NCBI GenBank assembly: GCA_036338635.1
Contig: JAYZBS010000045.1
Coordinates: 4,601 to 68,600 of the forward strand
Direction of reading: 5' to 3'
Origin: Pseudomonadota bacterium
GTDB lineage: Bacteria; Pseudomonadota; Alphaproteobacteria; Rhodobacterales; Rhodobacteraceae
Length of the DNA stretch: 64,000 nucleotides
This document shows, piece by piece, positions 54,576 through 64,000 of the stretch (position 1 is its first letter; every line of letters begins with the position of its first letter). Under the pieces are notes generated by a model, which did not search any database, was not told where the DNA came from, and was given only the letters and a program-made list of their open reading frames with translations. The position numbers and the translations under genes were made by a program.

Positions 54576-54956
54576 GCCTTCCGATTAACTAATGGAACGA
54601 CCTTCGCAACAAAGTATCGGCCAGACAATCTGGAGCTCGGACACCGCTTACGAAGTTGCACTGGATCACTTGCCAAATTGTCGACCGGAGAGAGTGGGAG
54701 ACGACACCAGGAGGGAACGTCTCGATCCGCATAAGCCCAAAAATTGTCCGTAACACGGCCTCCGTCAAGGATAATCGCTGGCAACGGCTTTGGTATGCAC
54801 GTGATCTTGCGCGAGTTACAGGCATGCACAAGTCCATGATCCATGCAGCGGACAGCAAAGCACCGCAATCTAGACTTTTTAGTAAGTGTTTCTAACCTGC
54901 AGCCGTAACACCCGAAGCCGCCCATGATTCCGGCGTTGCGGCAGCCGAAGGACACA

Positions 54957-55643
54957 ATGATGGACAACCTCTCGCAGACCCTTTCCAGCCTGCCGCTGTT
55001 CGGTCTAATCCGTGACGGCGGCTGGACGATGTGGCTGATCGCGGCTCTCTCGGTCATCACGCTCACCATCGTCCTGTGGAGGCTCTTCGCGCTGTGGCGG
55101 CTCGGGGTCTGGGGCGGGCGCCATTCGCGCCGGGCGTTGCAGCTCTGGTCCGCCGGTCGCCCGGCCGAGGCCATTGCCAAGGTCCGCGGCCGCCCCTCGG
55201 CTCGCGCTCGCGTCGCGCAGGCGGCCATCGGCACGTCGCTGGACCCGCATTTCGATGAGGCCGCAGCGCGCGAGGAAACTGCACGGGTCGCCCGCAACAC
55301 ACTCTACCGGGCGCGCGGGGGGCTGCGGGCGCTTGAGCTGATCGCAACTATCGCGCCGCTGCTGGGCCTTCTGGGAACGGTTCTGGGGATTATCACTGCC
55401 TTCCAGGTGCTGCAGACCTCGGGCAATCAGGCCGATCCGGCCGATCTTGCGGGCGGTATCTGGGTCGCGCTGCTGACCACGGCGGCCGGCATGGCCGTGG
55501 CGATCCCGGCGGGGGTCGCGCTGTCCTGGTTTGAAAGCATTGCCGACCGCCTGCAGGCCGATCTCGAGGATCTGGCAACCCGCATCTTTGTCGCCGCTTC
55601 CGCACATGACGCCCGTCCCTTCCTGCGCGAGGCCGCGGAATGA
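54957..55643 (+). CDS. exbB: MotA/TolQ/ExbB proton channel
   Basis: IATIAPLLGLLGTVLG, GGIWVALLTTAAG. Confidence 0.9.
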   Translation: MMDNLSQTLSSLPLFGLIRDGGWTMWLIAALSVITLTIVLWRLFALWRLGVWGGRHSRRALQLWSAGRPAEAIAKVRGRPSARARVAQAAIGTSLDPHFDEAAAREETARVARNTLYRARGGLRALELIATIAPLLGLLGTVLGIITAFQVLQTSGNQADPADLAGGIWVALLTTAAGMAVAIPAGVALSWFESIADRLQADLEDLATRIFVAASAHDARPFLREAAE

Positions 55644-56038
55644 GCCTGCAGGTAGGGTTCGATCTCGGCCCGCGCCGACGCCCCCGGCGCATGTCGCTGA
55701 CGCCGATGATCGACGTCGTCTTCCTGCTGCTGATCTTTTTCATGCTTGCCTCGCGCTTTGGCATGGACGCGGTCCTCCCCATCGCGGGCGGCGCCGAAGG
55801 GGCGGGCAGCGATTGGCAGGGCGCTCCGCGCCTCGTGGACATTGCCCCGGTCGAGCTGCGCCTCAACGGCGCTCCGGTGACGCCCGAAACCCTGCCTGAG
55901 GCACTCTCCGACCTGCTGCCCAACCCCGCCGCCGCCGTGATCCTGCGCCCGCAAGAGGGAGCAGACCTCCAGCGCCTCGTCGATGTGATGGACCTGCTGA
56001 CGGCAGCGGGCCTGACGAATCTCATCCTGATCGAGTAG
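55640..56038 (+). CDS. exbD: ExbD/TolR biopolymer transporter
   Basis: SLTPMIDVVFLLLIFFML. Confidence 0.9.
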   Translation: MSLQVGFDLGPRRRPRRMSLTPMIDVVFLLLIFFMLASRFGMDAVLPIAGGAEGAGSDWQGAPRLVDIAPVELRLNGAPVTPETLPEALSDLLPNPAAAVILRPQEGADLQRLVDVMDLLTAAGLTNLILIE

Positions 56039-56042
56039 TTAG

Positions 56043-56427
56043 ATGCGCATCGACATGCCCCCAGGCGCCCGCGCGGCGAGTCCATCATCCCCATGATCAA
56101 CGTGGTCTTCCTGCTGCTGATCTTTTTCCTGCTGACTGCCCAGATCGCCCCCTCGACCCCCTTTCCGCTGACGCCGCCCGACAGCGCCTCGGACCTGCCG
56201 GCCGAGGGGCGCGACGTCCTCTTCGTTTCCGCTGACGGGGAGCTTGCTTGGAACGAGGCGAGGGGCAAGGCAGTCTGGGACGCCATCGCCGCGCGGACGG
56301 GCGAGAGCCCGCTCGAAATCCGCACCGATGCCGCGGCCGATGCCGCTGCCTTGGTCGCCCATCTGAAACGCCTGCGCGAGCTGTCGGAGAGCGGCGCGCG
56401 TCTCGTGGTCAGCGGAGGATGCCATGA
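56043..56427 (+). pseudogene. exbD: Second ExbD, frameshifted near 56060 and near its stop (~56420)
   Basis: MRIDMP|PRRPRGESIIPMINVVFLLLIFF; the C-run is one base short; the ORF reads through its expected stop. Confidence 0.75.
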
Positions 56428-57336
56428 TCTCACGCCGCACGCTGGAAACCGCCGGCTTCTTCACAATCGCTGCCGCCCTGCACGTCTCGACCGCCGCGAT
56501 CATGCTGCCCGAGCAACTGGAACGCGGCGAGCCCGCAGACGCGCCCCCCGCCGCCCTCGCGGCGGGGGGCGTCGAAGTGCAGGCGATGGTCGAGGCTTGG
56601 GAACCGCACCCGAACTAGCCGCACCCGCCGACATGCCCGAACCCATGCCCATGCCCGAGCCGGAACTGTCACCACCCGTACCGGAAGCGCCACCCGAGAT
56701 CGCACTGGCCCTCGCTCCGCCCCCGTCGATGACGCTGCCCGAAGCAGCGCCGACGCGACCCAACCTGCCCGAGCCTCCGGCCCCGCCGCGGATCAACCCG
56801 GCCCATTTGGACCTGCCTAAGCTGCAGGAACTCACCCCGCCGCAGATCGAGCCGCCCCTCGCGCTCGCCGCTTCGAACCGCCCCGAGCGACACCCGGAAC
56901 GCCGCGCCGCCCGATCTGCGCGCGACCCAGAGCCCCGCCGCCAGCAACAGGCCGAGCGCCTGTCCGCACCTGCTCCGGCCCCCTATCAAACCGGCCAAAG
57001 CGGTCAGTCCCAAGCCGCCAGCGCGGGCGGAGGCGGGGGCGGCGTCAGCGCGCCAGCCTGATGTCACAACGGGGCGGCCAGATCCGCAGCTGCATCAATC
57101 GCCGCGCCCGCGCCCCGCGCGGCCTGCGCGAGGGCGGGCAAGTCGTTCTCGCCCTGACCATCGGCCGCGACGGCGCGGTCCGCGGCGTAGGCCTGGCAGC
57201 CTCCTCGGGCCAGCCGGCTCTCGATCAGGCCGCCACCGATGCGGCCCGCCGTGCCGGCCGCTGCCCGGCCGCTCCAACGGGACTGAACGATGCGAGCTAC
57301 AGCTTCGAGCTGCCCCTCAGCCTCAACGTCAGGTGA
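56424..57336 (+). pseudogene. tonB: TonB, split into three pieces
   Basis: TM anchor with ALHVS (56424-56618); Pro-rich linker in another frame; TonB_C domain (GQIRSCI..LTIGRDG..SSGQPALDQAA) at 57061-57336. Confidence 0.82.
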
Positions 57337-57800: not shown

Positions 57801-58370
57801 GTGACGACATCAGATTTACGGACACTGCTGCGTCGCGAGAGTGCTGTTTTGCACGCTACGCTGGACAAGGGCATCGGTCATCTGACCGACGCGGCGGACT
57901 ACCGGCGTTACGTCCTTGGTAGTCACGCCTTTCGCGCCTCACTCGAACCAGCGCTTTCCAACGCCGAAGCCGCGACGGGCTGGCAACCGCTGCTGCTGGA
58001 GGCGGAACTCTACGGTGATCTTGCCGCCCTTGGCCTCTGCGCCATGACGCCTCTCGTGGCGCCGCCGCTGGAGAGCGAGGCCTCGCTGATCGGTGCGCTC
58101 TATGTGCTTGAAGGCTCTTCGCTTGGTGCGGTGCTATTGTCTCGGCAGGCCGCCGTACTGGGGTTTGACGCGACGCGGGGTGCGCTGCATCTGGCACGGC
58201 AGACTCATGATCCGCGTCGCTGGACTGCCTTCCAGCATGTGCTGCAGCAGCCAAATGTTGATCGCGACGAGGCATGTACCGCTGCGCGGGCGGTATTCCG
58301 GCTGGCGCTGGCGGCGTTCAGCGTGTCGGCGCCTGCCACCGTCGAAGTCTGTCTCGACGACTGTCGATAA
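57801..58370 (+). CDS. bphO: Biliverdin-producing heme oxygenase
   Basis: LRRES..LHATLD, LYVLEGSSLG; directly upstream of the phytochrome. Confidence 0.88.
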   Translation: MTTSDLRTLLRRESAVLHATLDKGIGHLTDAADYRRYVLGSHAFRASLEPALSNAEAATGWQPLLLEAELYGDLAALGLCAMTPLVAPPLESEASLIGALYVLEGSSLGAVLLSRQAAVLGFDATRGALHLARQTHDPRRWTAFQHVLQQPNVDRDEACTAARAVFRLALAAFSVSAPATVEVCLDDCR

Positions 58371-58411: not shown

Positions 58412-60562
58412 ATGACCAAGCCACCTGACACCGAGACCGCCGCCGCCTTTCGCGCCGAACTGACCGCGTGCGACCTGGAGCCGATCCATATCCCTGGATC
58501 GATTCAATCCCACGGCCACTTGCTGATCTTTGGTCACGACCTGACGCTGCACGGCGTCGCCAGCCGGGATGCCGCTTTGGCCGGTGCCGCTTCGGGCATG
58601 CCCCTGAACCAGCTTCTCGACGGGGCATTGGCGCATTTGAAGCTTGAAACCCTTGGTCCGCACGAAGGCACGCAGGTCATGCAGAGCGTTCACGCGCTCG
58701 GGCAGAACTGGGATGTCGTAGCCTATAGAAGTGGCGCCTATATCATGGTCGAGCTTCTGCCCACCGACGCGACGGAGACGCTGGATGCGCGCTTCATCGG
58801 CCGGATGCAGGCGCTGGACGGCGTATTGGAGCGGTCAGCGTCGTTGGTCGATCTCTATCGCAACGCGGCCGAGGTGTTCCGGCAACTGACCGGCTATGCC
58901 CGGGTGATGGTATACCGTTTTCTTGCAGGAGAAGCCGGCGTCGTGGTCGGCGAAAGCCGCGCCGGCGATTCGGGCAGCTTCATGAACCACCACTTCCCAG
59001 CCAGCGACATTCCCGCTCAGGCGCGGGCGCTTTATGTGCGCAACCGAATTCGGGTCATTGCCGATGCGAGGGCGGACGTGCAGCCGATCATCGGGAAGGA
59101 TGCCGGCATCGCCGAGGTCGATCTGAGCGATTCAATGCTCCGCAGCGTGTCTCCCATTCATCTGCAGTATCTACAAAACATGGGGGTCCGGGCGTCGGCC
59201 TCAATGTCGATCGTGCAGAACGGCATGCTGTGGGGGCTGATTGCCTGCCACGATCCCGAACCGCGAAACGTGTCTTTGACCACGCGGCTGGCCTGCGTCA
59301 GCCTTGCAGAAAGCCTCTCGCGCCAGATCCGCCTGCGCGAGGAGACGCTGCTTTACCGCGAACGTATCCGGCTGCGCTCGGCCGAGGATGCCATCATGGC
59401 AAAGCTGGGCAAGGATGAGGGGCTGAACAACTTCTTTGCAGATGCGGCACCCGGGCTGAGGGAGCTGGTGGACGCAACCGGCTTTGCCGCCGTGCAGGGC
59501 AGCGAAATATTCACCCACGGCGAATGCCCGCCGCACGAGGACTTACGCAAGATCGCCGAGCGACTGCGCAACGGGGCAGCGGTCCGTCCCTTCGCCACTG
59601 CACGACTCGGCACCGATCTTCCGGACGCGACCATCCGCCTGGACATCGCCTCTGGTCTTCTGGCGGTGACGATGTCGACCGAAGTGCCGACCGTCCTCAT
59701 CTGGCTACGCGCCGAAGAGCTTCAGGTTCTGACTTGGGCCGGGAACCCACACAAGGACGTGGCGATGCGGCCGGGGGCCGAGTTGGAACCGCGCGCATCT
59801 TTCGAGGCGTGGTCTGAACAGGTGCGTGGCCGCGCACGCCCGTGGAGTACTGCCGAGATCGAGGCGGCGGGCCGGCTGGTGCGGCTGCTGCTGGAAGCGC
59901 GCAACGCGCTTCGCATCCGACGCCTGCACTCGGAGCTGTCGGTTGTGGTGCGCGAGAACGAGAGCCTGCTGCGCCAGAAGGACTTTCTGCTGAAAGAGGT
60001 GAACCATCGCGTCCAGAACAGCCTCTCGCTTGTTGGGTCGTTCCTTCGCATGCAGGCGCGCGGCGCTGAGCCTTCGGTGCGCGCCCAGCTTGAAGAGGCG
60101 CAGGGCCGATTGGCGGCGGTAAGCCTGGTCCATCGCCGTCTCTATCAGGACGACCGCGCCGAAATCGTGGACCTGTCCATCTATCTGGACGATCTGCTGC
60201 GCGACATGCGTGCGGCGCTGGATCCTCGCTGGAGCACGCTGATCGAAGGAGAGTTCGCGCCGATCCTGGTTTCCGCAGATGCGGCGGTGACCATCGGATT
60301 GCTGGTGAATGAGCTGGTCGCCAACGCGATCAAATATGCCTATGGCGGAGAGCCAGGGCCGATTGCCGTGACGCTGGCCGCCTGGCGCGACGGCTTCCGG
60401 CTACAGGTTGCCGATCGCGGGGTCGGATCTGGCGGAGCGGTGCAGGGCACAGGGTTCGGGACACGGATGATCGACGCACTAGTCTCGCAGCTTGGCGGAA
60501 CGGTCCAGTCAGAAGCAAACGAACCGGGTCTACGCATCTCGGTTGTCGGGGTGCTTAGCTGA
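58412..60562 (+). CDS. bphP: Bacteriophytochrome PAS-GAF-PHY-HisKA_2-HATPase
   Basis: Chromophore Cys in CDLEPIHIPGSIQ; HFPASDIP; PIHLQYL; PRASF; KEVNHRVQN; NELVANAIKY; DRGVG; GFG. Confidence 0.95.
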   Translation: MTKPPDTETAAAFRAELTACDLEPIHIPGSIQSHGHLLIFGHDLTLHGVASRDAALAGAASGMPLNQLLDGALAHLKLETLGPHEGTQVMQSVHALGQNWDVVAYRSGAYIMVELLPTDATETLDARFIGRMQALDGVLERSASLVDLYRNAAEVFRQLTGYARVMVYRFLAGEAGVVVGESRAGDSGSFMNHHFPASDIPAQARALYVRNRIRVIADARADVQPIIGKDAGIAEVDLSDSMLRSVSPIHLQYLQNMGVRASASMSIVQNGMLWGLIACHDPEPRNVSLTTRLACVSLAESLSRQIRLREETLLYRERIRLRSAEDAIMAKLGKDEGLNNFFADAAPGLRELVDATGFAAVQGSEIFTHGECPPHEDLRKIAERLRNGAAVRPFATARLGTDLPDATIRLDIASGLLAVTMSTEVPTVLIWLRAEELQVLTWAGNPHKDVAMRPGAELEPRASFEAWSEQVRGRARPWSTAEIEAAGRLVRLLLEARNALRIRRLHSELSVVVRENESLLRQKDFLLKEVNHRVQNSLSLVGSFLRMQARGAEPSVRAQLEEAQGRLAAVSLVHRRLYQDDRAEIVDLSIYLDDLLRDMRAALDPRWSTLIEGEFAPILVSADAAVTIGLLVNELVANAIKYAYGGEPGPIAVTLAAWRDGFRLQVADRGVGSGGAVQGTGFGTRMIDALVSQLGGTVQSEANEPGLRISVVGVLS

Positions 60563-60611: not shown

Positions 60612-61049
60612 TCAGGCCACCCGGGGCACGGGACTGAAACCTGCCGGAACGCTCTGATCGTCAGCTGTGCCTCTGAGCAACTGCTGGATATATTGAAGCG
60701 CCGCCGCGAAGCCGGTTGCCGAAAAGGGTTTCCCGATCACACCGATGGCGCCATCGCAGCCTTCGGGAACCTTTTTCGGATTGGCCGTCACGAAGATGAT
60801 CGCGGTGTCGGGCCAGCGTGCGCGGATCTCGGCACTTGCCTCCAGACCATTCGACCCGCCGGCCAGGTTCATGTCGACAAGAGCCAGATCGGGCGCCGCT
60901 GCCGCGGACAATGCCTTGATGTCATCCAGCGAAGTGCAGGTTGCGACGGGCTGATGGCCGGCGTCCTCGATCATCATTTCGATGTCCATGGCAATGATGA
61001 GCTCGTCCTCGACCACGAGGATGGACAGCGGTGGCGCCTTGTCGTTCAT
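60612..61049 (-). CDS. Single-domain response regulator receiver
   Basis: VVEDE, ALVDMNL (phospho-Asp), IFVTAN, GKPF; ATGA-coupled to the LOV gene. Confidence 0.9.
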   Translation of the reverse strand: MNDKAPPLSILVVEDELIIAMDIEMMIEDAGHQPVATCTSLDDIKALSAAAAPDLALVDMNLAGGSNGLEASAEIRARWPDTAIIFVTANPKKVPEGCDGAIGVIGKPFSATGFAAALQYIQQLLRGTADDQSVPAGFSPVPRVA

Positions 61050-62164
61050 GAATGATCTCTCGCAATGGAAAGTATGACCTCGAGGTCCCCGCCGTCGGCC
61101 TGGGACCACTCGACGCGCGTGCGCGTCTGAGCCGCAAGGCGCGTGATGATCTGTGCGGTGATGCCGCTCGGCGAAAAGCTTGATGGCGATTCTCCTGCGG
61201 CCTGCCCCGAGACCCGGATCCGCAACTCGACCTTCCTGACATCTGCAGAAGAGGAGATATCCAGATAGCCCCCCTCGCGCCCGGCTATCATATGGTTGAG
61301 CACTTCGTTGACCACGAGCCCGCTGGCCGAGGCTTGACCGGCCGGGATCTCCGCGCGGCCAAGATCCGCCCGCACGCGCAGCTCTGCACCGGTCTGGCCT
61401 TGCGCTAGATCCGACGCCAGACCGACAGCGTAGGACCCGATATCGAAGCGTGTCACATCCTCGGCCTGATAGAGATGACGATGCACGCTGGCGATCGCGT
61501 CAATTCTAGACATCATCAGCCGCAGCAGATCTGCGGTCGCGGAATCCTGGGCCACACGCAGCTGCATGCGCAGGATCGAACCGATCATCGTCATGTTGTT
61601 CTTCACGCGGTGGTCAACTTCGTGCAGCAGCAGTCGCTGTGCGTCCAGCGCGTCACGCAGTTCGGCCACGCGCCGGGCGACCTCGGCCTCGACCAGTGCC
61701 TTCTCTCGCATCACGCGGGCCTGCTGATCGATCCGGTCGGTGATATCCACCTGTGACGCGAAGTGAAAACGGATGACCCCCGCGTCGTCCCGAACCGGGC
61801 TGACGTAGAGAGCGTTCCAGAACGGCGTGCCGTCCTTGCGGTAGTTCAGCAGGTCGACCGACGTGTCCTCGCCAGTCGCGATCGCTTGCCGAACCTTCGC
61901 AACGGCCGTGGGATCTGTGTTCGGGCCCTGCAGAAAACGGCAGTTCCGTCCAATCAGTTCTTCGCGCGTGTATCCGGTCAGCTTCTGGAAGGACGCGTTC
62001 GCAAAGACGATCGGGTTGTCGGACTGGTTGGGGTCCGTGATGATCATCGGCATTCGGGTCGCCCGAACAGCTGCAGCAAAGGGATCGCCGCGCCCATGCT
62101 CGTGGTGCAGCGCCTCCGTCAGCGTCCAATCGTCTTGCTGTCTCACCAGTTCATCCCGATTCAA
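61046..62164 (-). CDS. LOV-domain HisKA_2 sensor with degenerate HATPase domain
   Basis: GRNCRFLQ, NYRKDGTPFWN, SQVD; H-box HEVDHRVKNN; N/G1/G2 boxes eroded. Start is TTG 62164 or GTG ~62146. Confidence 0.9.
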   Translation of the reverse strand: MNRDELVRQQDDWTLTEALHHEHGRGDPFAAAVRATRMPMIITDPNQSDNPIVFANASFQKLTGYTREELIGRNCRFLQGPNTDPTAVAKVRQAIATGEDTSVDLLNYRKDGTPFWNALYVSPVRDDAGVIRFHFASQVDITDRIDQQARVMREKALVEAEVARRVAELRDALDAQRLLLHEVDHRVKNNMTMIGSILRMQLRVAQDSATADLLRLMMSRIDAIASVHRHLYQAEDVTRFDIGSYAVGLASDLAQGQTGAELRVRADLGRAEIPAGQASASGLVVNEVLNHMIAGREGGYLDISSSADVRKVELRIRVSGQAAGESPSSFSPSGITAQIITRLAAQTRTRVEWSQADGGDLEVILSIARDHS

Positions 62165-62390: not shown

Positions 62391-64000
62391 TCAATCGGGA
62401 ACGCGCTGACCCAGAATGCTACGAGGCGCTGCAGGCTCCTCTCGCCGGGGTTCTGGGGCCACCGCGTTCTCTTTTGTCATGACAGCGACGACATCAGCTG
62501 CGATCTTGTCGAGCAGGTCCAATTCGGCATCTTCAATCCGGCGCGGCGAACGATCCACGATGGAGAGCGCGCCCAACACATGCCCTTCTAGAGTGCGGAG
62601 TGGTACGCTGGCGTAAAAGCGTCCCTGCCACTGCCGCACCGACTGATTGTCAGAGAAGCGCGGGTCGCGTTCCGTGTCCGGCACAACAAGCGAGTCGTTG
62701 GATGCGACGACATGGCTGCAAAGCGACTCAGCGCGCGGCATGTAGGTCATGCTCGCCTTGGTCGCAGTCCGCTGTCCGGGCAGATCCATACTCTGTCCTA
62801 GGATGTATTCCGCGTCGGCGTCGAGGGCGGAAATGAAGGCGAAGCTGACATCGAAAACATCTGAGGCGCGCGAGGCCAGCTCATCCAGATCCTCGCGCGC
62901 ATGGCCGTCCAGAATGTCGGTGGGGGCCAGTGCTTTCAGTCGCGCAGTCTCGGTTTCAGAGGATGCGGGCAGGCTTGCTGTAGCCATATGCTCGGGCTGC
63001 ATCAGCGACATGCGGCGCACGGCTTCGTCCATCGACAGCACGATCTGATCAACGCCGAGAGCTTCGGCCCGATGAGCAAACTCTGCGCCATCGGGTGCGT
63101 TCCACAACGCCAGAATGATCCGCACGTCGGGCCAGCGACGGCGGATACGGCGCACGAAGCCACGTACTGCCGTGTCGGGATCCCGGCTGAGATAGCCGAT
63201 ATAGACCGTGTCGACGCCCTCCAGCTCCAGCCCGTCGACGTAGCGTGCAGTAACGACGCCAGTCGCCCGCAGTTCTGCGGGGACGCCTGCAAGCGCCAGC
63301 GCGTGGACCAGCATCTCGGCCGCAATGGCAACGACCTGCCACTTGCCGCCGATACAGATCGTAGAGGCGTGACCGGCCTCAGGGGCAGGTGGTCCTCGCG
63401 GATTTTTTCCAGAAGGCGGTCCATGCCGGCGACAACGCGCAGGCGATGCTTCACGCGGGCATGCGAATGATAGCCCTTGCTGGTCTGGCGCAGGACTTCG
63501 AGCTCGATATCGTCATAGAACTCGGTCACTATGCTGGCACTTATTGACTCTGACGCAAGCTCATAGGCCTCTTCGGGATCGCTGGCGATCAGGCGTTGAT
63601 AGATGCGCCTCGGAAGGTTCAGCGCCGGGGCTGAGCCAGGTAGTGTTCCAAAGAACGCCATCTGGGGCACGTTGCGGCCTTGGACCAGCAGGCAAACCGT
63701 CAGCGGCGTGGACAGGATCAGGCCAAGCGGCCCCCAGAGGGCGGTCCAGAAGGTTGCCGCCGCGATCGACGACAGTGCCGACAACCCGGTCGAGGTCCCA
63801 CAAAGAAACGGCTCCACGATGTTGTTGCTGACCAGCTCCAGGAACAGGATCAGCGCTGGTGCCATCAGCACCATCTGCCAGCCCGGATCGACAGCGAAGG
63901 CCAAAGCCAGCAGGAAGGCGGCCGACAGCAACGGTCCAACGTAGGGAATAAACCGCATGATCGCGGCCAAGGTGCCCCACAGAACCCGACCCGGCACGCC
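62391..64000 (-). pseudogene. AI-2E family transporter fused to a C-terminal GAF domain; frameshift near 63390; 5' end outside window
   Basis: RFIPYVGP..EP...TGLS..FWTALWGPLGLILSTPLTVCL; the downstream frame has a GAF domain (CSHVV..VPDTERDPRF..FYASVPL). Confidence 0.75.

What the first reader, a model, noticed from the sequence alone, without database searches (positions are those of the whole stretch)
61046..61500. LOV sensor appears to be a pseudokinase
The H-box His is kept (EVDHRVKNN), but the N-box reads NEVLNHMIA, the G1 DxGxG is replaced by VSGQAAG, and G2 by SGITAQ. The neighbouring BphP has all three boxes intact. It probably cannot bind ATP, so it could be a blue-light-gated phosphatase, a phosphorelay acceptor, or a heterodimeric modulator of BphP. 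That would give red-on/blue-off logic.
Basis: partly seen in the sequence, partly recalled or inferred. Interest (0 to 1): 0.65.

Follow-up and report, generated by a model that had tools for sequence, protein, structure and literature searches.

The report
Blue-light sensor with dead kinase domain
A Paracoccus blue-light (LOV) sensor keeps its phospho-accepting histidine but has lost every ATP-binding motif of its kinase domain, a loss conserved by selection in a whole clade, so it most likely passes on or removes phosphate for its partner receiver protein, often alongside a neighbouring red-light kinase, rather than acting as a kinase.

Summary
The 372-aa LOV protein (window 61046-62164, minus strand) has an intact LOV motif and an intact HisKA_2 H-box. 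Pfam finds no HATPase_c domain. Against about 100 intact homologues, the Mg-chelating N-box Asn is replaced by His and the G1 (DxGxG) and G2 (GxG) boxes are gone.

This is not strain-specific decay. A well-supported clade of 14 homologue clusters, named ones all Paracoccus, shares the loss. The Asn went first; G2 went later in one subclade. The CA-like domain is under purifying selection (dN/dS about 0.2-0.4). It diverges about as fast as intact CA domains and carries its own conserved motifs. More distant Paracoccus orthologues are intact.

The gene always overlaps (ATGA) a single-domain receiver whose nearest relatives are PhyR, LovR and SdrG receivers. The genome encodes PhyR. In 155 Paracoccus species genomes, 15 carry the LOV gene. 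Ten carry the orthologous HisKA_2 bacteriophytochrome; all ten also carry the LOV gene, adjacent wherever contigs allow.

Best reading: a light-gated histidine phosphotransferase/phosphatase, as shown for Caulobacter LovK and as in PhyT and ChpT. BphP or other HWE/HisKA_2 kinases would supply the phosphate. No biochemistry was possible. I rate it a new variant of a known kind, of moderate interest. The scan had already noted this two-colour module in the same window.

The parts
61046..62164 (-). LOV-HisKA_2 protein with degenerate CA domain (372 aa from TTG 62164; alternative GTG start at 62146 matches where orthologues start)
   Evidence: ORF list; Pfam PAS_9 + HisKA_2, no HATPase_c; orthologues
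61730..62089 (-). LOV domain (residues 26-145) with GRNCRFLQG; adduct-forming Cys75 at 61940-61942
   Evidence: Pfam; PDB LOV hits at E down to 1e-44; N74-C75-R76 invariant in 100 homologues
61400..61621 (-). HisKA_2 DHp domain (residues 182-255); phospho-acceptor His185 at 61610-61612; H-box HEVDHRVKNN invariant
   Evidence: Pfam HisKA_2 E=3e-20; H181, E182, D184, H185, R186, V187, K188, N189, N190 invariant in alignment A1
61049..61399 (-). CA-like pseudo-catalytic domain (residues 256-372). N-box Asn is replaced by His291 (61292-61294). The G1 position is 61193-61213 and the G2 position 61151-61168, both degenerate. The helix IITRLAAQT after G2 is conserved
   Evidence: Alignments; AF2 keeps an alpha/beta sandwich with a low-confidence loop at 320-334; dN/dS 0.16-0.39; only 4 hits among 1.84e9 representative proteins
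60612..61049 (-). Single-domain response regulator (145 aa), LovR/PhyR-REC-like. Its start overlaps the LOV stop (ATGA). Acidic pair E15/D16, phospho-acceptor D59 (60873-60875), T88 and K107 are intact
   Evidence: Pfam Response_reg. It is the second-best match in the genome to the PhyR model. Its nearest paralogue is the PhyR REC domain. Top PDB hits are PhyR receivers, 2N9U, SdrG and Sma0114. The -4 overlap is seen in all 11 Paracoccus orthologue loci where it was measured, and called genes overlap by 1-4 nt in the other loci
58412..60562 (+). Bacteriophytochrome BphP (716 aa): PAS_2-GAF-PHY-HisKA_2-HATPase_c with intact N, G1 and G2 boxes. It is convergent with the RR (50-nt gap) and has no receiver gene of its own
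   Evidence: Pfam; boxes; orthologue present only in LOV-bearing Paracoccus genomes and adjacent there
57801..58370 (+). BphO-like heme oxygenase (189 aa) upstream of bphP
   Evidence: Weak Pfam Heme_oxygenase hit, E=0.0012, below the curated cut-off; conserved upstream of bphP in L029, L034 and L047

Best explanation
The protein is a LovK-type blue-light sensor that has become an obligate non-kinase. It keeps a photoactive-looking LOV domain, the Jalpha/DHp helices and the phospho-acceptor His185. Its CA domain can no longer bind Mg-ATP.

I propose it works as a light-gated histidine phosphotransferase and phosphatase for the receiver translated from the same mRNA. It would accept phosphoryl groups on His185 from a phosphorylated receiver, or strip that receiver of phosphate, so that the LOV-RR pair acts as a valve or sink. 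The phosphate would originate from true kinases of the same HWE/HisKA_2 class. Where present, that is the convergent bacteriophytochrome BphP, which has no receiver of its own. Otherwise it is other kinases feeding the PhyR general-stress-response network.

Shown here: loss of the boxes, their clade-wide conservation under selection, the invariant His, the constant RR partner and the BphP linkage. Inferred: no autophosphorylation, the phosphotransfer or phosphatase chemistry, and the direction and light polarity of the flux.
For: (1) There is no HATPase_c hit. The N-box Asn is replaced by His and G1 and G2 are absent. In the related LOV-HK RT-HK, mutating the Mg-chelating Asn (N256A) alone abolishes autophosphorylation (PMC11580852).

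(2) His185 and the whole H-box are invariant in 100 homologues, including every degenerate one.

(3) The loss is clade-wide. A 14-row clade with 99% support, on a tree built only from LOV+DHp columns, is entirely degenerate.

(4) Selection is purifying. CA-like dN/dS is 0.16-0.39, against 0.07-0.25 for LOV and 0.005-0.15 for DHp. CA identity at a given level of sensor divergence is close to that of intact clades: 0.48 vs 0.49, 0.66 vs 0.72, 0.78 vs 0.85. The clade has its own conserved motifs, NEIL.HMI and YSPSGV.EQII.RLAAQT.T.V.W.

(5) The RR is intact, overlaps the LOV stop wherever this was measured, and is PhyR/LovR/SdrG-like. PhyR, an ECF sigma factor and a PhyK-like protein are present in the genome.

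(6) There is biochemical precedent. G1 and G2 mutants of Caulobacter LovK are still phosphorylated via MrrA~P. LovK shuttles phosphate to LovR and dephosphorylates LovR~P (PMC5964349). PhyT has a degenerate ATPase domain and acts as a His phosphotransferase (PMC5898713).

(7) The orthologous BphP is found in 10 of 155 Paracoccus genomes. All ten carry the LOV gene, and BphP is adjacent in 9 of the 9 assemblies where contigs allow. None of the 140 LOV-less genomes has it. The same cassette occurs in Falsirhodobacter and in metagenome loci.
Against: An invariant H-box is also expected for a pure phosphatase or for structural reasons. Four fully degenerate orthologues lie in genomes without this BphP, so the phosphodonor there is unknown. 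No MrrA-like donor was identified. No EcfG-type promoter (GGAAC-N15-18-CGTT) lies upstream, so the link to the general stress response is indirect. The AF2 fold of the CA-like domain is informed by intact homologues in the alignment and does not test ATP binding. The conserved His at the Asn position could in principle ligate a metal.
Confidence: 0.55

Rival explanations
1. It is a dedicated light-gated phosphatase of RR~P. The DHp catalyses hydrolysis without His185 ever carrying phosphate. BphP or other kinases charge the RR and the LOV protein discharges it.
For: The HRVKNN motif is intact, with Asn at H+4. LovK is reported to act as a genuine LovR~P phosphatase (PMC5964349). The RR is intact and coupled, and BphP is convergent without a receiver of its own.
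Against: Sequence cannot separate this from phosphotransfer. PhyT, first assumed to be a phosphatase, showed no phosphatase activity in vitro and turned out to be a phosphotransferase (PMC5898713). Strict invariance of the His itself fits an acceptor role at least as well.
Confidence: 0.2
2. It is a heterodimeric partner or modulator of BphP. The two HisKA_2 DHp domains pair, and the BphP CA domain phosphorylates the LOV protein's His in trans, or the LOV protein poisons BphP. This would give two-colour logic within one complex.
For: The BphP orthologue co-occurs exclusively with the LOV gene and is adjacent to it. The LOV DHp is 42% identical to the BphP DHp, tied for the best match in the genome. 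RT-HK autophosphorylates in trans (PMC11580852). In P. syringae, LOV-HK suppresses BphP1 signalling genetically (PMC3684834).
Against: Four degenerate orthologues persist under selection in genomes lacking this BphP. The DHp is equally similar to the PhyK-like protein. No co-variation or interaction was tested. Some relatives in this family are monomers (EL346, 4R3A; PMC10359499).
Confidence: 0.1
3. It is a phosphorylation-independent scaffold or reverse sensor of the DivL type. The DHp/CA-like surface binds RR~P, and light changes binding rather than chemistry.
For: DivL is a repurposed pseudo-HK that reads the phosphorylation state of a receiver (PMC4211667). PhyT also acts by forming a complex with PhyR. 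The CA-like surface is conserved with its own motifs.
Against: DivL has lost the phospho-acceptor His, whereas here it is invariant. No downstream partner is evident in the conserved neighbourhood.
Confidence: 0.07
4. It is still an autokinase that binds nucleotide in a non-canonical way, for example with His291 ligating the metal.
For: His291 is conserved at the Asn position in the fully degenerate subclade. The domain fold is retained in the model.
Against: The G1 Asp that reads the adenine, and both Gly-rich boxes, are absent. That region varies in both sequence and length among orthologues. Partly degenerate relatives have R, Q, L or T at the Asn position. The Asn-to-Ala change alone kills RT-HK.
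Confidence: 0.05
5. It is a decaying, functionless remnant (pseudogene in progress).
For: Three catalytic motifs are lost and the G1 region is variable.
Against: The reading frame is intact in every orthologue whose C-terminus could be read. dN/dS is well below 1 in the CA-like domain. The divergence rate is like that of intact CA domains and there are clade-specific conserved motifs. Translational coupling to the RR is conserved.
Confidence: 0.03

Closest known systems
Caulobacter crescentus LovK-LovR (LOV-HisKA_2 protein plus single-domain receiver)
   Same: Both have the architecture LOV + HisKA_2 DHp + CA followed directly by a single-domain receiver, in a genome with a PhyR general stress response. 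LovK was shown to act as a phosphotransferase: its G1 and G2 mutants are still phosphorylated via MrrA~P. It also acts as a LovR~P phosphatase, so that LovK and LovR form a phosphate sink (PMC5964349).
   Different: LovK still has intact N, G1 and G2 boxes. Here they are lost naturally and the loss is fixed in a clade. No MrrA-type donor was identified here. A bacteriophytochrome is linked here but not to lovKR.
PhyT (formerly PhyP) of Sphingomonas melonis; ChpT and Spo0B
   Same: These are histidine-kinase-derived proteins with an HRxxN-type DHp His and a degenerate ATPase domain. They act as histidine phosphotransferases between receivers (PMC5898713).
   Different: [quoted passage not shown] It is not a sequence orthologue of PhyT or ChpT.
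Intact short LOV histidine kinases (Erythrobacter EL346/EL368, Rubellimicrobium RT-HK, Brucella LOV-HK)
   Same: They share the family and fold. Foldseek top hits are YF1 (4GCZ), EL346 (4R3A) and Brucella LOV-HK. Identity to intact homologues is 52-60%. Their partners are likewise PhyR and LovR receivers.
   Different: Those proteins autophosphorylate. The Mg-chelating Asn they require (N256 in RT-HK) is missing here, together with G1 and G2. A different natural degeneration, loss of the phospho-acceptor His in a subgroup of EL346-like LOV-HKs, has been noted (PMC10359499).
Pseudomonas syringae LOV-HK / BphP1 network
   Same: A blue-light LOV protein counteracts signalling by a bacteriophytochrome (PMC3684834). 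This is the same two-colour logic proposed here.
   Different: In P. syringae both proteins need their kinase activity and are not reported as a linked cassette sharing one receiver. Here the LOV partner lacks the kinase motifs and the genes form a conserved convergent module.
DivL (Caulobacter pseudo-histidine kinase)
   Same: A histidine-kinase scaffold repurposed for a non-kinase role, with PAS domains (PMC4211667).
   Different: DivL lost the phospho-acceptor His but kept a CA domain. Here it is the reverse: the His is kept and the ATP site is lost.

Membership tests
LOV photoreceptor domain | PAS fold with the GXNCRFLQ motif and the adduct-forming Cys | tested here: met
   GRNCRFLQG at residues 72-80; PAS_9 E=1.7e-22; 50% identity to the Brucella LOV domain structure; N74, C75 and R76 invariant
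LOV photoreceptor domain | Flavin binding and a blue-light photocycle | not testable with these tools
   Requires purified protein and spectroscopy
HWE/HisKA_2 sensor histidine kinase (functional autokinase) | HisKA_2 DHp with the H-box HRxxN | tested here: met
   PF07568 E=3e-20 and PF07536 E=4e-9; HEVDHRVKNN invariant
HWE/HisKA_2 sensor histidine kinase (functional autokinase) | Recognisable HATPase_c (Bergerat-fold ATP-binding) domain | tested here: not met
   No PF02518 or PF13581 hit at E<=0.1, whereas BphP and intact homologues score. The domain alone finds only 4 proteins among 1.84e9
HWE/HisKA_2 sensor histidine kinase (functional autokinase) | N-box Mg-chelating Asn (NE..TNA.KH) | tested here: not met
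   The position is His291 and the Lys is lost. In the EL346 alignment, SEVLTNALQHAF pairs with NEVL-NHMIAG
HWE/HisKA_2 sensor histidine kinase (functional autokinase) | G1 box DxGxG and G2 box GxG | tested here: not met
   RVSGQAAGES stands in place of DDGPG and SGITAQ in place of GLG or SIG. The G1 region varies in sequence and length among orthologues
HWE/HisKA_2 sensor histidine kinase (functional autokinase) | ATP-dependent autophosphorylation | not testable with these tools
   Needs an in vitro assay
HK-derived histidine phosphotransferases (PhyT/ChpT/Spo0B type; LovK in HPt mode) | DHp-like helical hairpin with a conserved phospho-accepting His, plus a retained CA-like domain that is not competent for ATP | tested here: met
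   at the level of sequence and model only
HK-derived histidine phosphotransferases (PhyT/ChpT/Spo0B type; LovK in HPt mode) | Demonstrated phosphotransfer from receiver~P to His to receiver | not testable with these tools
   Biochemical assay needed
PhyT orthologous group | Membrane-anchored, with a periplasmic domain, and encoded at the phyR locus | tested here: not met
   The protein is soluble LOV + DHp + CA-like. phyR lies on contig C25 and this gene on C45
LovK-LovR type pair | LOV-HisKA_2 gene directly followed by a single-domain receiver of the PhyR/LovR/SdrG type, in a genome with PhyR | tested here: met
   The ATGA overlap is conserved. The pair is present in all loci examined. PhyR scores 359 bits, over the curated cut-off
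LovK-LovR type pair | Control by, or of, the EcfG/SigT regulon | tested here: inconclusive
   No GGAAC-N15-18-CGTT anywhere in the window.
DivL-type pseudo-histidine kinase | Phospho-acceptor His replaced (by Tyr) while the CA domain is retained | tested here: not met
   His185 is present and invariant. The CA domain is what has degenerated

The most novel reading that the evidence does not exclude
A horizontally mobile two-colour module in which a red/far-red bacteriophytochrome kinase and a blue-light LOV pseudokinase converge on one single-domain receiver. After the two photoreceptors were joined, the LOV partner gave up its autokinase activity and specialised as a light-gated phosphotransferase/phosphatase. 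A single receiver's phosphorylation level would then compute a red-versus-blue ratio and pass it to the PhyR general stress response. This would be the first natural photoreceptor that is a histidine pseudokinase, and a natural evolutionary confirmation of the LovK-as-phosphotransferase model.
Probability: 0.3. Interest if true: 0.75.

Novelty: new variant of a known kind. Interest (0 to 1): 0.55.

Why it matters
Whether LovK-type LOV 'kinases' act in cells as kinases or as phosphotransferases/phosphatases has been debated since the Caulobacter MrrA work. Here evolution has made the mutant itself: a clade of LOV proteins that discarded all ATP-binding motifs yet stayed under selection with their receiver. 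That argues the non-kinase activities are sufficient for function.

The tight linkage to a receiver-less bacteriophytochrome gives a compact, testable system of four genes for studying how bacteria integrate red and blue light at a single phosphorylation node. It could also supply a natural light-gated phosphatase or phosphotransfer part for optogenetic two-component circuits.

Tried and rejected
1. Strain-specific decay or sequencing error. Rejected: orthologues in 8 other Paracoccus genomes and several metagenome contigs share the same degenerate boxes with open frames.

2. Neutral decay. Rejected by dN/dS and relative divergence.

3. BphP as an obligatory partner. Rejected as a general rule: G002, G006, G022 and G087 have the degenerate LOV-RR pair but no orthologous BphP.

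4. Degeneration as a consequence of losing BphP. Rejected: most degenerate copies still sit next to BphP. One intact copy (G042) also does, so the cassette predates the loss.

5. An EcfG-type promoter upstream. None was found. The sigma-70 and terminator scans gave nothing useful.

6. Searching with the CA-like domain alone for other architectures that carry it. Only 4 hits came back. One is the Paracoccus cluster representative and three are canonical CA fragments.

7. Literature searches for a LOV pseudokinase or for Paracoccus photoreceptors found no description.

9. Foldseek on the whole model confirmed only the LOV-HK architecture. TM-scores were low because of differing domain arrangement.
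Full report
**Anatomy.**
The finding lies in the C-terminal third of an ORF at window 61046..62164 on the minus strand. It is 372 aa from a TTG start. A GTG at 62146 coincides with where orthologues start. Pfam finds a LOV-type PAS domain (PAS_9, residues 40-143) and a HisKA_2 DHp domain (182-255, E=3e-20). It finds no HATPase_c or HATPase_c_2, even at E<=0.1. The last 117 residues are the right size and position for a CA domain.

The LOV motif GRNCRFLQG, with the adduct-forming Cys75, is intact. So is the H-box HEVDHRVKNN with His185. The stop codon overlaps (ATGA) the start of a 145-aa receiver-only protein at 60612..61049 (minus strand). That receiver has an intact acidic pair, D59, T88 and K107.

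Convergent with it, 50 nt away, is a bacteriophytochrome at 58412..60562 (plus strand). Its domains are PAS_2-GAF-PHY-HisKA_2-HATPase_c. It is preceded by a small heme-oxygenase-like gene at 57801..58370.

**Checking the observation.**
A search of 5.8 billion proteins returned more than 6000 LOV-HisKA_2 homologues. Named top hits place the window in Paracoccus. I aligned the 117 full-length sequences among the best 120. About 100 carry the family's boxes: NE(I/V)LTNA(I/V)KHA, DDGxG, and GLG or SIG.

The window protein reads NEVLNHMIAGR. The Mg-chelating Asn is replaced by His291 and the Lys is lost. RVSGQAAGES stands at G1 and SGITAQ at G2.

phmmer against PDB aligns its DHp and N-box helix to EL346 (4R39/4R3A), where the corresponding segment is SEVLTNALQHAF. 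The alignment stops at G1. The neighbouring BphP has NELVANAIKYA, DRGVG and GFG.

**Is it strain-specific decay?**
No. Nine of the closest clusters (P0001-P0009, 66-74% identity) share all three losses. Their common pattern is NEIL.HMI at the N-box, a G1 region that varies in sequence and length, and a conserved YSPSGV.EQII.RLAAQT.T.V.W around the former G2. Four more clusters (P0010, P0013-15) have lost the Asn and most of G1 but keep SGLG at G2. P0063 and a Falsirhodobacter group (P0025/27/29) are also degenerate.

I built a maximum-likelihood tree from the LOV and DHp columns only, so that the trait itself could not drive the topology. It puts 14 degenerate sequences in one clade (SH-aLRT 99). 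Falsirhodobacter falls apart from them. An intact Paracoccus/Cereibacter group (P0012/16/18/19) is nearby. The simplest reading is that the Asn was lost first and G2 decayed later in one subclade.

**Selection.**
For five genome orthologues I computed Nei-Gojobori dN/dS per domain. The CA-like domain gives 0.16-0.39. It is 0.20-0.39 for the three least saturated pairs, with dS of 0.59-0.80. LOV gives 0.07-0.25 and the DHp 0.005-0.15.

The constraint is therefore relaxed, by roughly two to four times in the least saturated pairs, but the domain is clearly under purifying selection. At the protein level, CA identity for a given sensor+DHp identity is almost the same in degenerate pairs as in intact pairs: 0.48 vs 0.49, 0.66 vs 0.72 and 0.78 vs 0.85. 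All frames are open. The domain is retained for a function other than ATP binding.

AlphaFold2, run with the 100-sequence alignment, gives pLDDT 89. The model keeps the alpha/beta sandwich and has a low-confidence loop (residues 320-334) where G1, the ATP lid and G2 would lie. Foldseek returns LOV histidine kinases: YF1 4GCZ, EL346 4R3A and Brucella 6PH4. The model inherits information from intact homologues, so it does not test nucleotide binding. The CA-like domain alone finds only four proteins at E<=1e-3 among 1.84 billion representatives. The best is the cluster representative of this same clade.

**Partners and context.**
The receiver follows the LOV gene in every locus examined, whether degenerate or intact: Paracoccus, Falsirhodobacter, Cereibacter, Sphingomonas and Aliihoeflea. 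In all 11 Paracoccus orthologue loci where I measured the offset, the 4-nt ATGA overlap is conserved. Its nearest paralogue in the genome is the receiver domain of PhyR. It is the second-best match in the genome to the NCBIfam PhyR model. Its best PDB matches are PhyR receivers, then 2N9U, SdrG and Sma0114. That is the receiver class served by HWE/HisKA_2 kinases.

The genome encodes PhyR (359 bits, over the cut-off) beside an ECF sigma factor and a PhyK-like HisKA_2 protein. It also encodes five other HWE/HisKA_2 proteins with intact boxes.

**Linkage to BphP.**
Of 155 Paracoccus species genomes, 15 have the LOV orthologue. Ten have the orthologous HisKA_2-type BphP at 56-77% identity. All ten are LOV-bearing. 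In nine the two genes are adjacent; the tenth assembly is fragmented. None of the 140 LOV-less genomes has this BphP. The seven other phytochrome matches (one of them a second copy in G042) are a different, longer type at 32-35% identity.

The same convergent cassette occurs in P. saliphilus, in Falsirhodobacter and in two metagenome contigs. The CA state could be read in 14 of the 15 Paracoccus orthologues; G120 is cut off by a contig end. They divide as follows:
- Fully degenerate with BphP: 5 (G000, G101, G070, G082, G001).
- Fully degenerate without BphP: 4 (G002, G006, G087, G022).
- Partly degenerate with BphP: 3 (G147, G098, G152).
- Intact with BphP: 1 (G042).
- Intact without BphP: 1 (G076).

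Intact homologues in Cereibacter, Sphingomonas and Aliihoeflea have the RR but no BphP.

So the cassette formed while the LOV protein was still a kinase. The ATP site decayed in the presence of a second kinase of the same class. Some lineages later lost BphP but kept the pseudokinase-RR pair under selection. These tallies are not phylogenetically independent, so I draw no statistics from them.

**Mechanism.**
That the protein cannot autophosphorylate is an inference, but a strong one. In the related RT-HK, changing the Mg-chelating Asn alone (N256A) abolishes 32P incorporation (PMC11580852). Here G1 and G2 are gone as well.

What it does instead is suggested by direct precedent in the same family. 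G1 and G2 mutants of Caulobacter LovK are phosphorylated normally via the receiver MrrA~P. LovK passes phosphate to LovR and dephosphorylates LovR~P, so that LovK and LovR form a phosphate sink that tunes the general stress response (PMC5964349). PhyT of Sphingomonas melonis has a degenerate ATPase domain and is a His phosphotransferase; ChpT and Spo0B are cited there as further degenerated kinases (PMC5898713).

The invariant His185, the intact coupled receiver and the selected CA-like surface all fit a light-gated phosphotransferase/phosphatase. Where BphP is present it has no receiver gene of its own and points at this one, which makes it the obvious phosphodonor. A genetic precedent for LOV counteracting a phytochrome exists in P. 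syringae (PMC3684834). The LOV DHp is equally similar (42%) to the BphP and PhyK-like DHps, more than to the other four compared. This is compatible with shared receiver specificity but does not prove it.

Direction of flux, light polarity and any heterodimerisation remain open.

**Novelty.**
Full-text searches found no description of a LOV photoreceptor with a degenerate CA domain, nor of Paracoccus LOV or BphP signalling. The nearest remark is that a subgroup of EL346-like LOV-HKs lacks the phospho-acceptor His (PMC10359499), which is the opposite kind of degeneration. The kind of protein (HK-derived phosphotransferase or pseudo-HK) and the non-kinase activities of LovK are already known. 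I therefore rate this a new variant of a known kind, of moderate interest. It is a natural G1/G2/N-box knockout of a LovK-type protein, fixed by selection and linked to a phytochrome in a compact, probably mobile, two-colour module.

**Limits.**
There is no biochemistry. dS is partly saturated for the deeper pairs. The sampling of loci outside Paracoccus is small.

Noticed in passing
window 62391-64000 (-): The AI-2E-transporter-like ORF (frame -1, 63392-64000) and the GAF-domain ORF (frame -3, 62469-63356) together match a single 788-aa AI-2E_transport-GAF fusion protein. That fusion lies upstream of the LOV gene in P. laeviglucosivorans (L031). Here the gene is split by a frame change near 63356-63392: a pseudogene, an assembly error or a genuine split.
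   Followed up: partly
own genome G000:C25:6188-8020 (-), outside the window: The PhyK-like HisKA_2 protein next to phyR and the ECF sigma gene keeps the N-box (TNAVKY) and G2 (GTGLG). It has no DxGxG G1 box ('EIVNSAAP'). This recalls the finding that Caulobacter PhyK acts as a phosphotransferase rather than a kinase.
   Followed up: no
window 62146-62164 (-): The start codon of the LOV gene is ambiguous. The longest ORF starts at TTG 62164, but orthologues (e.g. P0010, MEERDDW...) start at the position of the GTG at 62146.
   Followed up: partly
L045 (Falsirhodobacter), L031 (P. laeviglucosivorans); genus scan: The LOV-RR(-BphP) cassette is patchy, found in 15 of 155 Paracoccus species genomes. 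In other genomes it lies beside a Rep3 plasmid replication gene (L045) or an IS110-family transposase (L031). This suggests horizontal mobility, and the window itself carries plasmid-like genes according to earlier notes.
   Followed up: no
window 57801-58370 (+): The BphO-like gene upstream of bphP matches Pfam Heme_oxygenase only weakly (E=0.0012, below the curated cut-off). Even so, it is conserved in the same position in three other cassettes (L029, L034, L047). It is a divergent heme oxygenase subgroup.
   Followed up: no
window 54924-57336 (+): ORFs that, judged from their translations alone (no family search was run), look like ExbB, ExbD, ExbD and a TonB C-terminal domain lie directly upstream of bphO. 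This neighbourhood is not conserved in the other cassettes examined.
   Followed up: no
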